Source: a virus
Lineage: Duplodnaviria; Heunggongvirae; Uroviricota; Caudoviricetes
Virus record (IMG/VR): IMGVR_UViG_2698536397_000009
Strand: one strand, 5' to 3'
Length of the DNA stretch: 28,739 nucleotides
Shown here in pieces: positions 1-3,000 of this stretch. Position numbers: made by a program. Positions within the stretch are counted from its first letter, which is position 1. Each line of letters starts with the position of its first letter.

Positions 1-3000
1 AGTCTCCAGGATTCCCGGGGCGATTCATATCGACCATGAGTTGGCAGTAGCTGGGCAAATTATTCCTGCTACAGATGAGATCACAATGAAATATCCAATC
101 TCGGAGGCGTTTTTTCGCGATATGTTCATCAATCATCCCTTCATCCCGTTTGGGCATGAAGAGTTTTTCATCAAGGGTATGGTTTGCGGTTTCAATGGAG
201 ATTTTATGACGGCATGCCACGTGTTGATTCCCCAGCTCGAAAATAGTCTGAGATATGTGGCTAAAATTAAAGGTGAGGAACCATCGCAGCTTCACGGGGA
301 CGGTTCGCAAGAGCGAAATGGACTCAAGGGATTACTAGATAATCCACTGATTATTGAAGCTTTCGGCGTAGACATAATTGGCAATCTTCAGGCCTTACTG
401 GTAGATAAAATCTATGGTGATTTACGAAATCAACTAGCTCACGGATATGTGCCTGCCGGTTACTACAATCAACCTCCCTGCATTTTTGCATGGTGGCTTG
501 TATTGCACATTCTAATGAACCCTACGGCGAGATACTGGCAAGCCACTTATGGCCAAGAGAGTGAGGCTCAGACTTAAAGTGAATAAGTTTACGAAGTTGG
601 CACTTCCGGATGCATGTCCATATGAGTTGAGGCGATTTGGTTAATAAGGTTGAGTGCTGCTGAAATTATTCGATGTCCGCTTTTGGCACAAAGCGGACAA
701 CCACGCCAGATCTACCCTGTGCCATGAAAAATGAGAATGTCAATTCACTCCTGAACTAATGCTTTTTAATCTAGTAACGTCTAAAATACCTAACATTATC
801 CCTGATAAAATGCCAGTATGCGCTGCATAACTTCACTCATCCGGCACTCGCGACAGATTATGTTTAGGCGACTGTCGTAGCGACGTATTTCTCCATCAGG
901 TAACGACCAGATAACGTCCGGATCAACCACAGCTGTTTTCTTCACCTTTGCCCTCGAGAGTTTTTTGCGGGCGTTTTGCCAGTCCTTACGCGCCTGTTCA
1001 GACGGGAATAACCCGTAGCCGGAGTTGTATACATCGCCACTGGCTACCAGCTCTCTGGCAAGAACGCTCATCAGATATCTAGTCGCACCTGTTTTAGCTT
1101 CCAGTTGCCGTAACGTCTCACGACCGCTCTGGCGCACGAGTTCCACCACCTGCCCTTTAATTTTTTCCCGCTCTTCTTGTGTAAAAACTTTTGCCACAAG
1201 TCCCCCTTAAAATTACCTCATGACCTGAAATCAAAACTTATCCTCTGAAACCAGGCGGAATTTCTGTATCCGGTTCAGAAATATGATTAACACAACGCTG
1301 TACAGGTGAACGCCCCAGGCGGATGACCAGTTCGTCCCATTTTTCGCGGAGCTTTGACGGGCTCATGATGTTTTTTACCCAGAATGGATCCCGCTGTACC
1401 CGACCAAACATTTCACAAATTTGTCTGTGGCTTCTGCCATCCAGCATCCGCATTGTGCGCACATCATTGGCCCAGACAGTCCAGTTAGGCTCTTTTGGTC
1501 GCATGATCTCGCCATCATCACTGGCGGCCTGTTCGTAGAGACCCACGATCCGCCCCCATATCCACTGCGCACACGCCAGATCCTCCTGGCTACCCCACTG
1601 GCGTTTTTTCGCACTAAACACAACTGCGCCAGGGTGCCGGATTAAAAAATCCTGTTCAGCCGTCTGCGGGTCCGGTTGCGAAGCTTCCGGACGAAAAGTG
1701 TTTTTATTCTCTGTAGTAATCTCTGTTGTATTCTCTGTAGGATCATCGGGCCATTTTGACCCGATGACATTGGGTCGTTTTGAACCAATGGAGCGTTTCA
1801 TTTTGACCTCTTCCATCGTGTCATTTTGACCTGATGGAGCGGCGCATTTTGAACCGATGGATTCGCTCAATTTGCCATCATCTAAAAGCTCGCTCCCATA
1901 GTTAATCGTGTAGAAATTGGTCATATCGCGCTTTGATTTATTGAGCTTTTCACAACGCAAAAGCCCCAGCGTTTTCAGACTTGCAAACGCGCGCTTTAAC
2001 GTTGACTCTGACCAGAATGGGAACTGTTCCAACCATTGTTCCGTTGTGTTGTAAATCCAGCGAACACCATCACATTCCATGCCGGAATTGGTATCTCTCA
2101 ACCAATAATGCAACTGCTGCAACACAATGGCTTCATTTAAGCCAATCTTCATCGCAAGCTGTGTGTTTATAACCAGTGGGCGTTCAGCAAAAAGAAGGCT
2201 CATAATTCCATCCAGCTTTTTGTTGGTATTGCTGTCGATACGCAAGTTTGAAAGCAATTGCTTTTTCTATAAGTTCGTCAGTTTCACGATCCACTACGGC
2301 AGGATCAGCAAAAAGCAGTCCGGACTCCACCACATCGCCATATTCTTTGTTTAACCCGGCGATCATGTACGTGATGCTTTTTCCGTCACTAATTTCACGA
2401 TACAACCTGAAATCATTAATCCGGATAGCCTCCATAATTGCAGGCACTAGCGCCGTGAACTTTTCACGCTTATCCCTGGTGTCGATAGCCTTCCAGCGTT
2501 CGAATATCTTCACTCGATTAACGCCAAGCGCTCGCTGATCAACCGCGCCACCTTCATCTGTGACACGCTGAACATCGATGTTCGGGCGCTCTTTCAAAGC
2601 CCAGAATGCTTCAGTGATTAATATCGTCGCCTGCTCCTGTGTCATTCCTGGTCGACATATCCAGGCATCCAGAGCCTCACGAGCCTGTTCAGGAGTGATT
2701 TTCATTGTTCAACCGCCCCGCCCGCTTCGTCTTACGATATTCGTCATAAACCTTGGGATCATACAGAAGCTCCCCGCCAGATGCCTCCTGTAGACGCATC
2801 GCGCGACCTTCAGGAACCAGTATCCCCCAAGCAGCAACACTTGCCAGTCTCACTCCTGCGGCATTGGCAAGCTTTGTTTTGCTGCCAAAAAAAGTAATTG
2901 CGTCAACTTTAAGCATCAAAGCCCCCTCTTGTTAGACTTTTCTAACATTATTGTGCGCGGGATATCTAAGTCAAGAAAAATTAGAATTACCTAACTATGG

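What the first reader, a model, noticed from the sequence alone, without database searches (positions are those of the whole stretch)
1705..1870. Origin-like iteron array embedded in the O-like replication gene
Seen: three tandem 12-bp repeats and five ~23-bp-spaced iterons (~CATTTTGAMC..ATGG), flanked by an AT-rich stretch, all inside the coding sequence and translating into repeated peptide units. Established: lambda-type O genes carry ori with iterons bound by O protein itself. This defines the likely replication origin and incompatibility determinant of this prophage.
Basis: partly seen in the sequence, partly recalled or inferred. Interest (0 to 1): 0.45.

Follow-up and report, generated by a model that had tools for sequence, protein, structure and literature searches.

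The report
Prophage replication origin inside initiator gene
The repeats are real and are very probably the replication origin of a Qin-site lambdoid prophage, lying inside the gene of the protein that binds it; this is a known kind of arrangement, here in a common, poorly annotated initiator family.

Summary
Window 1705-1740 holds three tandem 12-mers. Window 1748-1855 holds five 23/24-bp-spaced palindromic iterons, and a sixth degenerate copy lies at 1864-1878. All lie inside the initiator gene (1238-2203, minus strand), in the part that encodes a predicted disordered linker.

The origin interpretation is supported by comparison, not by experiment.
- The 23-bp repeat is read in three reading frames.
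- Synonymous sites are more conserved in the repeats than in the flanking domain.
- Relatives from many phyla carry the same layout.
- Protein residue 67, at the start of the predicted recognition helix, covaries perfectly with the iteron base next to the CA core: S with T 19/19, D with G 13/13, K with A 6/6. An independent phage set agrees.
- The 12-mers are fixed at the DNA level: Thr is always ACA and Glu always GAG.

The protein is lambda-O-like only in its C-terminal domain. Its N-terminal domain is an unannotated winged-helix family whose nearest solved fold is the plasmid RepA_N initiator. It ends in a copy of the host DnaT tail, and no P-type loader gene follows.

Verdict: a new member of a known kind, of moderate interest.

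The parts
1238..2203 (-). Replication initiator gene (321 aa from the ATG used in RefSeq and phage records; the mechanical ORF from TTG runs to 2257)
   Evidence: ORF list. PHROG 391 'replication initiation O-like', E 3.5e-92. RefSeq and phage annotation. No Pfam or NCBIfam family for the whole protein.
1880..2203 (-). N-terminal winged-helix domain (aa 1-108), the inferred iteron reader; residue S67 opens the predicted recognition helix 66-78
1864..1878 (.). Iteron 0, degenerate (gene sense atggCAAATTGagcg); a good palindrome in relatives (aagtCAAAGTGacca)
1841..1855 (.). Iteron 1 (gene sense ggttCAAAATGcgcc)
1818..1832 (.). Iteron 2 (aggtCAAAATGacac)
1795..1809 (.). Iteron 3 (aggtCAAAATGaaac)
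1772..1786 (.). Iteron 4 (ggttCAAAACGaccc; the dyad extends to CATTGG...CCAATG)
1748..1762 (.). Iteron 5 (gggtCAAAATGgccc; the dyad extends to 1743-1767, 91% complementary)
   Evidence: (I4).
1705..1740 (-). Three tandem 12-mers (gene sense CTACAGAGAATA CAACAGAGATTA CTACAGAGAATA), A+T-rich; inferred DNA unwinding element
   Evidence: G+C 0.30. Near-invariant across relatives, including synonymous sites. Unpaired in single-strand folds of both strands.
1310..1666 (-). C-terminal domain homologous to the lambda O C-terminal domain (aa about 180-298)
   Evidence: BLASTP against lambda O: 34% identity over 148 aa, E 3e-27. pLDDT 60-82.
1241..1300 (-). C-terminal tail of 20 aa, nearly identical to the tail of host DnaT (..SEPDTEIPPGFRG)
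   Evidence: phmmer against PDB chains 2ru8, 6aep and 9zbt_D. NCBIfam DnaT positions 160-179.
2947..2974 (-). pR-like promoter candidate (TTGACT-16-AATAAT) upstream of the cro-like gene; its transcript would run through the cro-like, cII/YdaT-like and initiator genes and across the origin
   Evidence: Consensus scan only. Gene order.

Best explanation
Window 1705-1878 is the vegetative replication origin of a Qin-site lambdoid prophage, embedded in the linker-coding middle of its own initiator gene.

Proposed steps:
1. Dimers of the initiator's N-terminal winged-helix domain bind six palindromic iterons (NNN-CA-AAA-TG-NNN) spaced 23 bp apart. Residue S67 at the start of the recognition helix reads the T next to the CA core. 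This binding is inferred from covariation, not shown biochemically.
2. The resulting nucleoprotein array, helped by the phased A-tracts, destabilises the adjacent A+T-rich block of three ACAGAGA 12-mers. These are kept at the DNA level and probably act as an unwinding element recognised as single strand (inferred).
3. The lambda-O-type C-terminal domain and the DnaT-like tail then bring in host helicase-loading machinery, since the phage has no P, DnaC or DnaB gene of its own (inferred, least certain).

Transcription from the pR-like promoter crosses the origin, as in lambda.
For: Repeats:
- They are real and non-random.
- The 23-bp period is not a multiple of 3, and the same DNA is read as IGSK, SGQN and EVKM.

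Conservation:
- Among nine Enterobacterales relatives, third-codon-position conservation is 0.70 in the N-domain, 0.88 across the iterons and 0.94 in the 12-mers.
- In 80 genomic loci carrying this N-domain, most have 2-6 palindromic iterons spaced 22-24 bp followed by ACAGAGA 11/12-mers. Hosts range from Enterobacterales and Pseudomonas to Staphylococcus, Lactobacillus and Chloroflexi.
- The two arms of each iteron change together.

Protein-DNA covariation:
- Residue 67 matches the base 5' of CA: S/T 19 of 19, D/G 13 of 13, K/A 6 of 6.
- Near-identical Pantoea N-domains differ at EK versus SD together with an A versus G change in the iteron.
- An independent phage set agrees: PEp14, ZX1 and 8P have D/G, yong2 has K/A, BMBtpLA3 has S/T.

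12-mers:
- Anchoring on the peptide, Thr is ACA 100/100 (23% elsewhere) and Glu is GAG 107/107 (47% elsewhere).
- Some loci keep the DNA motif at 11-bp spacing in other frames.

Modular inheritance:
- The N-domain, iterons and 12-mers move together, and the C-domain is exchanged separately. The junction lies right after the 12-mers.

Structure:
- The model shows a winged-helix N-domain, a disordered segment 109-177 that is exactly the repeat-coded part, and a folded C-domain.
- The nearest fold is RepA of pSK41-type plasmids. The pSK41 origin lies centrally in its rep gene, with A-tract palindromic Rep boxes followed by short tandem repeats (PMC5703833, PMC7145576).

Lambda comparison:
- The layout is the same as annotated lambda ori (PMC7466680).
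- The viable phage HannyBb has the same gene (97.4% nucleotide identity) and the same repeats.
Against: - There is no experiment. Binding, unwinding and replication are all inferred.
- The N-domain has no detectable sequence relation to lambda O or RepA_N. The fold match rests on a medium-confidence model (mean pLDDT 60, N-domain 70-85) built from a shallow alignment.
- The covariation counts are not corrected for phylogeny.
- About nine Bacillus/Neobacillus homologues keep the N-domain (52-56% identity) but have no iterons or 12-mers. The link between domain and in-gene origin is therefore not universal.
- The role of the 12-mers as an unwinding element, and the role of the DnaT-like tail, are guesses by analogy.
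Confidence: 0.8

Rival explanations
1. The repeats only encode a repetitive flexible linker. They persist because of the protein, or because of slippage, and have no function as DNA.
For: The segment is predicted to be disordered (pLDDT 25-28 over residues 109-177). The 12-mers are in frame and give TENTTEITTEN. Copy number varies between relatives: 2-5 12-mers, and an in-frame 93-bp deletion in P0018.
Against: The 23-bp period is read in three frames. Synonymous sites are more conserved in the repeats than in the folded domain. ACA and GAG are used 100/100 and 107/107 times. The DNA motif is kept in other frames at 11-bp spacing. The palindromic arms covary with each other and with residue 67.
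Confidence: 0.03
2. The iterons are binding sites of the initiator, or of another phage protein, used for something other than initiation. Candidates are autoregulation, copy-number handcuffing or exclusion of related phages. The true origin would lie elsewhere.
For: Covariation shows binding specificity, not what the binding is for. Ectopic lambda ori copies inhibit related phages (PMC4488673, PMC3349717), so such sites can have inhibitory roles. The Bacillus homologues without in-gene repeats must use some other site or task.
Against: The sites lie about 1 kb downstream of the only promoter-like site, not at an operator. They are coupled to an adjacent A+T-rich repeat block in nearly all lineages. 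The same arrangement is the proven origin in lambda and pSK41 (PMC7466680, PMC5703833).
Confidence: 0.1
3. The palindromes act as single-strand hairpins, that is, a PriA-type primosome assembly site. The DnaT-like tail of the protein would recruit the restart primosome to them.
For: Single-strand DNA folds of both strands are more stable than shuffles (z -3.2 and -3.0). The protein ends in the DnaT tail. No loader gene is present.
Against: The hairpins are simply the dyad-symmetric binding sites; iterons 1 and 3 are poor palindromes. Relatives in hosts without DnaT have the same iterons but other tails. The arm changes track a protein residue, which is the pattern expected for duplex recognition.
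Confidence: 0.05

Closest known systems
Bacteriophage lambda ori / O protein
   Same: The origin lies in the middle of the initiator gene. It has dyad-symmetric iterons with an A-tract centre spaced 20-24 bp, then an A+T-rich, purine-skewed block downstream in the sense strand. The C-terminal domain is homologous. The gene order is cro-like, cII-like, initiator, Ren-like. In-frame deletions between iterons occur, like the in-frame deletions among lambda origin mutations (PMC6022878).
   Different: The N-terminal DNA-binding domain is unrelated by sequence. There are six iterons of another sequence, with strict 23-bp spacing. The A+T-rich block is made of conserved 12-mers. There is no P gene. 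The protein carries a DnaT-like C-terminal tail.
RepA_N plasmid replicons (pSK41, pTZ2162) and the Vibrio PLE RepA
   Same: The protein has three parts: a winged-helix N-domain, a dispensable or disordered middle encoded by the origin, and a host-specific C-domain (PMC5703833). [quoted passage not shown] RepA_N is the best structural neighbour of the N-domain.
   Different: There is no sequence match to PF06970, and hhalign gives probability 0.14% against the pSK41 Rep N-domain. The C-domain is of lambda-O type rather than DnaG-binding. The downstream repeats have another sequence.
Iteron plasmids RK2 (TrfA) and F (RepE): 13-mer repeats in the unwinding element
   Same: Winged-helix initiators bind duplex iterons. 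They also bind, sequence-specifically, one strand of tandem short repeats in the adjacent unwinding element, and all repeats are needed (PMC4081077). This is the model proposed here for the ACAGAGA 12-mers.
   Different: The protein families are different. The origin lies outside the rep gene. The 12-mer to single-strand interaction is not tested here.
Stx phages 933W and P27 ori (six iterons)
   Same: These are lambdoid origins with six rather than four iterons inside the O gene. The extra iterons lengthen the protein linker and are needed for replication (PMC7466680).
   Different: They are true lambda-type O proteins and iterons, with a P gene.

Membership tests
Lambda-type ori (origin inside the O gene) | The origin lies in the middle of the initiator gene, between the DNA-binding N-domain and the C-domain | tested here: met
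   The repeats encode residues about 110-167 of 321. The model shows folded domains at 10-108 and 180-298 with a disordered segment between them.
Lambda-type ori (origin inside the O gene) | Four or more direct repeats with internal dyad symmetry at about two helical turns | tested here: met
   Six iterons spaced 23-24 bp with palindromic arms around CAAAATG. Lambda for comparison.
Lambda-type ori (origin inside the O gene) | An A+T-rich region directly downstream of the iterons in the sense of the gene | tested here: met
   G+C is 0.30 at 1700-1739, the minimum of the gene, directly 3' of iteron 5 in gene sense.
Lambda-type ori (origin inside the O gene) | The initiator N-domain belongs to Phage_rep_O (PF04492 / TIGR01610) | tested here: not met
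   No hit at E up to 1, while lambda O scores 5.7e-36 and 5.4e-39 in the same runs. hhalign probability is 0.1%.
Lambda-type ori (origin inside the O gene) | The initiator C-domain is homologous to the lambda O C-domain | tested here: met
   BLASTP: 34% identity over 148 aa, E 3e-27.
Lambda-type ori (origin inside the O gene) | A P-type (or DnaC/DnaB-type) helicase loader gene next to the initiator | tested here: not met
   The next gene is DUF977/Ren-like. No loader is present in the window, in phages HannyBb or mEp460, or in the ATCC 25922 prophage.
Lambda-type ori (origin inside the O gene) | The fragment replicates when the initiator is supplied | not testable with these tools
   Needs a plasmid replication assay.
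RepA_N replicons (PF06970) | Sequence match of the N-domain to RepA_N | tested here: not met
   No PF06970 hit at E up to 1. hhalign against pSK41 Rep residues 1-132 gives probability 0.14%.
RepA_N replicons (PF06970) | RepA_N / DnaD-NTD-like winged-helix fold | tested here: inconclusive
RepA_N replicons (PF06970) | Semi-palindromic iterons converging on an A-tract, located centrally in the rep gene | tested here: met
   pSK41 sequence read directly. Description in PMC7145576 and PMC5703833.
E. coli DnaT (primosomal protein I), the RAST name for this protein in mEp460 records | Full-length similarity to DnaT (NF002770) | tested here: not met
   Only profile positions 160-179 match, at 16 bits against a cutoff of 201. 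The PDB matches cover only the last 20 residues.

The most novel reading that the evidence does not exclude
The ACAGAGA 11/12-mer block is a previously undescribed, phylum-spanning cis element: a sequence-specific single-strand 'landing pad' read by the conserved N-domain. It would be shared by phage, phage-plasmid and plasmid origins of Gram-negative and Gram-positive hosts. Residue 67 would provide a simple, engineerable one-residue-to-one-base code for iteron specificity (S to T, D to G, K to A). In Enterobacterales the initiator would replace a phage helicase loader by carrying a copy of the host DnaT tail, thereby hijacking the restart primosome.
Probability: 0.3. Interest if true: 0.7.

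Novelty: new member of a known kind. Interest (0 to 1): 0.45.

Why it matters
This origin type is present in 1893 of 5426 complete E. coli genomes, with up to four copies per genome. RefSeq almost always labels the gene 'hypothetical protein', and no Pfam or NCBIfam model covers the DNA-binding domain.

Defining the origin and its specificity rule would have three uses:
- Prophage replication modules could be typed.
- Cross-talk or exclusion between co-resident prophages could be predicted.
- Orthogonal initiator/iteron pairs could be designed.

The family also links two textbook systems, lambda O and RepA_N plasmids, in one chimeric protein. It offers a natural handle on two open questions: what the DnaT tail binds, and how short tandem repeats in unwinding elements are recognised.

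Tried and rejected
- Pfam, NCBIfam and PDB sequence searches with the whole protein and with an N-domain profile gave no family for the N-domain. The only hits were weak, non-significant PadR-like ones.
- hhalign of the N-domain profile against lambda O and against pSK41 Rep found no homology.
- An Rfam scan of 1100-3100 at E up to 1 found nothing.
- DnaA-box, IHF-site or primase-site readings of the 12-mers were considered from memory only. TTATTCTCT differs from the TTATNCACA consensus at two positions. These readings were not pursued because the motif is conserved across hosts from different phyla and travels with the N-domain.
- Literature searches found no experimental description of this family's origin: lambdoid iterons, replisome organizer, RepA_N and the GFRG tail motif. 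The library does not cover subscription journals, so earlier work may exist.
- The DnaT preprimosome paper (PMC13377028) does not state in its text what the extreme C-terminal tail contacts.
- My first two scripts for the residue-67 table failed on a wrong regular expression. They were corrected.
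Full report
**1. What is in the sequence**

The finding lies in a minus-strand gene, ORF 1238-2257, whose annotated start is the ATG at 2203 (321 aa). Its minus-strand neighbours are:
- a Cro/DicC-like gene (2689-2919);
- a cII/YdaT-like gene (2184-2705);
- a DUF977/Ren-like gene (796-1197).

A cI/DicA-like repressor gene (2997-3404) is divergent. One promoter-like site (TTGACT-16-AATAAT, 2974-2947, minus strand) sits upstream of the cro-like gene.

In E. coli ATCC 25922 the same region lies in a prophage next to rspB and ynfA, together with dicB, ydfA, hokD, rem and rrrQ. That is the Qin site.

Tandem Repeats Finder and the repeat finder confirm three 12-mers at 1705-1740 and 23-bp units from 1744 to 1882. 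In gene sense the iteron cores are:
- ggttCAAAATGcgcc (1841-1855)
- aggtCAAAATGacac (1818-1832)
- aggtCAAAATGaaac (1795-1809)
- ggttCAAAACGaccc (1772-1786)
- gggtCAAAATGgccc (1748-1762)

A sixth, degenerate copy, atggCAAATTGagcg, lies at 1864-1878.

Four pattern hits on one strand within 100 bp never occurred in 300 Markov simulations; the largest cluster there was 2. The 12-mer block is the G+C minimum of the gene at 0.30.

**2. The repeats are kept as DNA, not as peptide**

The 23-bp period is not a multiple of three. The same core is translated as IGSK, SGQN and EVKM.

Among nine non-redundant Enterobacterales relatives with the same linker length, the mean conservation of third codon positions was:

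| Segment | Third-position conservation |
|---|---|
| N-domain | 0.70 |
| Iteron stretch | 0.88 |
| 12-mer block | 0.94 |

First and second positions are about equally conserved in the N-domain and the iteron stretch.

In the alignment with the Klebsiella, Pantoea and Providencia phage genes, which are 64-77% identical overall, the block CTTACAGAGAATACAACAGAGATTACTACAGAGA is almost invariant.

I then anchored on the peptide, taking tandem [TSP]Ex[TS] units in 39 of 79 distinct ORFs. The Thr codon is ACA in 100 of 100 cases, against 23% elsewhere in the same genes. The Glu codon is GAG in 107 of 107 cases, against 47% elsewhere. In several Gram-positive and other loci the CAGAGA motif recurs at 11-bp spacing and is read in other frames: L045, L053, L058, L064, L067 and L069.

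**3. The layout is a family trait**

A degenerate-pattern scan with an N-domain alignment returned 80 genomic loci. Most show the same order: N-domain, then 2-6 palindromic iterons of the form NNN-CA-(A/T)3-TG-NNN spaced 22-24 bp (mostly 23), then tandem (W)ACAGAGA-N-TAC units.

Hosts include Enterobacterales, Pseudomonas, Acinetobacter, Staphylococcus, Limosilactobacillus and Chloroflexi metagenome-assembled genomes. The arms differ between lineages (ggtCA..TGacc, gggCA..TGccc, ggaCA..TGtcc, gatCA..TGatc, tgcCA..TGgca), and both arms change together.

About nine Bacillus/Neobacillus loci keep the N-domain but have neither repeat type. However, these are distant homologues (52-56% identity), not orthologues. 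All close orthologues keep the repeats.

**4. Evidence that the N-domain reads the iterons**

The gene is a mosaic. The segment 1669-2146 (N-domain plus repeats) is shared with Klebsiella, Pantoea and Providencia phages that have other C-domains. The segment 1329-1707 (C-domain) is shared with SfIV-type phages, which have another N-domain, other repeats and no ACAGAGA block. The junction lies right after the 12-mers.

The residue before the invariant Thr68 (motif W-S-E-S67-T68-L-K-R) opens the predicted recognition helix 66-78. It partitions perfectly with the base 5' of the CA core:

| Residue 67 | Base 5' of CA | Count |
|---|---|---|
| S | T | 19 of 19 |
| D | G | 13 of 13 |
| K | A | 6 of 6 |
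| R or H | C or A | 3 cases (C twice, A once) |

The change recurs within closely related Pantoea N-domains (EK with ggaCA, SD with gggCA) and in distant lineages.

Nine phage genes fetched afterwards agree:
- Erwinia PEp14, Klebsiella ZX1 and Pseudomonas 8P: D with G.
- Hafnia yong2: K with A.
- Bacillus BMBtpLA3: S with T.
- Geobacillus NIIg9.7: R with C.
- Staphylococcus SpT152: M with T.
- Staphylococcus phiIPLA88 has R, and its two clear iterons have A next to the core, which is consistent with R pairing with C or A.
- Listeria PLM34 has N with mostly T; N was not seen in the first set.

The counts are not corrected for phylogeny. They show binding specificity, not origin function.

**5. 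What the protein is**

PHROGs calls it 'replication initiation O-like'. Only the C-terminal half is lambda-like: 34% identity to lambda O residues 135-270, E 3e-27.

The N-domain has no Pfam or NCBIfam model and no profile similarity to the lambda O N-domain.

An AlphaFold2 model (mean pLDDT 60) shows three parts:
- an N-domain at residues 10-108 (pLDDT 70-85) with a helix-turn-helix and a beta wing;
- a disordered stretch at 109-177 that is exactly the repeat-coded part;
- a helical C-domain at 180-298.

Published descriptions of RepA_N replicons match the anatomy seen here. The N-terminal 120 residues bind Rep boxes centrally within the rep gene. The middle of the protein is encoded by the origin. 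The C-domain is host-specific (PMC5703833). The iterons are semi-palindromic repeats converging on a poly-A tract (PMC7145576).

I read the pSK41 sequence directly. It has four GTGTCAAAAGGACAC boxes spaced 22 bp, followed by GATACTGATTTTATT tandem repeats. Sequence-level membership in RepA_N is nevertheless not met.

**6. Comparison with lambda**

Lambda's annotated iterons (ATCCCTCAAAACGAGGGA and variants, spaced 20-24 bp) are followed by an A-rich block, inside O. The order and orientation are the same here.

Established knowledge for lambda is that O binds the iterons to form the O-some and that the A+T-rich tract is needed for unwinding. The same paper reports similar binding to A+T-rich single-stranded DNA by all the O variants it tested (PMC7466680). 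For plasmid winged-helix initiators, sequence-specific binding to one strand of tandem 13-mers in the unwinding element is documented (PMC4081077). That is the model I propose for the 12-mers. It is an inference.

In single-strand folds of both strands, the iterons form hairpins (z about -3) and the 12-mer block stays unpaired.

**7. Helicase recruitment**

No P, DnaC or DnaB-type gene follows the initiator, either in the window or in the viable phages HannyBb and mEp460.

The last 20 residues (RCVNHISEPDTEIPPGFRG) are nearly identical to the C-terminal tail of E. coli DnaT ([20 protein letters not shown]). Among the 80 loci, the (I/V)PxGF(R/K) tail occurs only in Enterobacterales hosts, and other hosts have other tails.

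The 2026 preprimosome structure paper does not state in its text what this tail binds. This last step of the mechanism is therefore the least certain.

**8. Distribution and annotation**

The 191-bp origin segment matches 1893 of 5426 complete E. coli genomes, with up to four places per genome. It is nearly always under a 'hypothetical protein'. Protein clusters with thousands of members carry no Pfam domain.

A few E. coli variants (P0018 to P0023, 290 aa) have an in-frame 93-bp deletion joining iteron 1 to iteron 5. This resembles the in-frame deletions among lambda origin mutations (PMC6022878).

**9. Verdict**

The reading needs two corrections: the DNA-binding module is RepA_N-like rather than lambda-O-like, and the system lacks a P-type loader.

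It is a new, uncharacterised member of a well-known kind, the iteron origin embedded in its initiator gene.

The more novel aspects remain hypotheses:
- the phylum-wide ACAGAGA repeats;
- the one-residue specificity rule;
- the DnaT tail.

Noticed in passing
window 1241-1300 (minus strand): The last 20 residues of the initiator are nearly identical to the C-terminal tail of host DnaT (..SEPDTEIPPGFRG). The rest of the protein is unrelated to DnaT. No helicase loader gene is present, so the tail may recruit host restart or loading proteins.
   Followed up: partly
L008-L087, ORF ends: The (I/V)PxGF(R/K) tail occurs only in loci from Enterobacterales. Bacillus/Neobacillus relatives end in ..EEDF(R/N)(F/L)DD(ET), staphylococcal ones in ..YDxSYWD, and lactobacilli in ..DLPF or ..ELPW. 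This suggests host-specific recruitment peptides.
   Followed up: partly
P0018-P0023; corresponds to window about 1762-1854: Some E. coli copies of the gene (290 aa) carry an in-frame 93-bp deletion that fuses iteron 1 to iteron 5. These are possibly origin-defective cryptic prophages, analogous to lambda ori deletions.
   Followed up: partly
L054, L055, L057, L059, L060, L062, L070, L072, L080: Bacillus/Neobacillus homologues keep the N-domain (52-56% identity) but have no iterons and no ACAGAGA repeats downstream. Their origin must lie elsewhere, or the protein has another role.
   Followed up: no
L171 13590-13760 (pSK41 rep gene): The pSK41 origin shows the same layout when read directly: four GTGTCAAAAGGACAC boxes at 22-bp spacing followed by GATACTGATTTTATT tandem repeats (about 2.5 copies).
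   Followed up: partly
L008, L009, L056: Contigs binned as Veillonella parvula, Bacillota and Collinsella metagenome-assembled genomes carry N-domain sequence 100% identical to the E. coli one. This is most likely mis-binned Escherichia prophage DNA.
   Followed up: no
window 1-577 (+); L168 11553-13340: A DUF4209-family gene (the window holds only its 3' part) lies on the opposite strand between the DUF977/Ren-like gene and hokD. It is absent at this position in phage HannyBb, so it may be an inserted accessory (moron) gene.
   Followed up: no
window 2689-3404: The divergent repressor pair is of the same size as DicA (135 aa) and DicC (76 aa) and lies in a Qin-site prophage that still has its replication gene. 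From memory, not checked here, K-12 Qin lacks that gene.
   Followed up: no
window 5261-7732 (+): This is an 823-aa ORF annotated 'exonuclease' in RefSeq and in phage HannyBb. It has a long acidic, low-complexity middle part. It was not examined.
   Followed up: no
L008 and P0100 versus window 1705-1740: The copy number of the 12-mer varies between close relatives: 3 in the window, 4 in L008 and P0100, and up to 5 in Edwardsiella and Xenorhabdus loci.
   Followed up: partly
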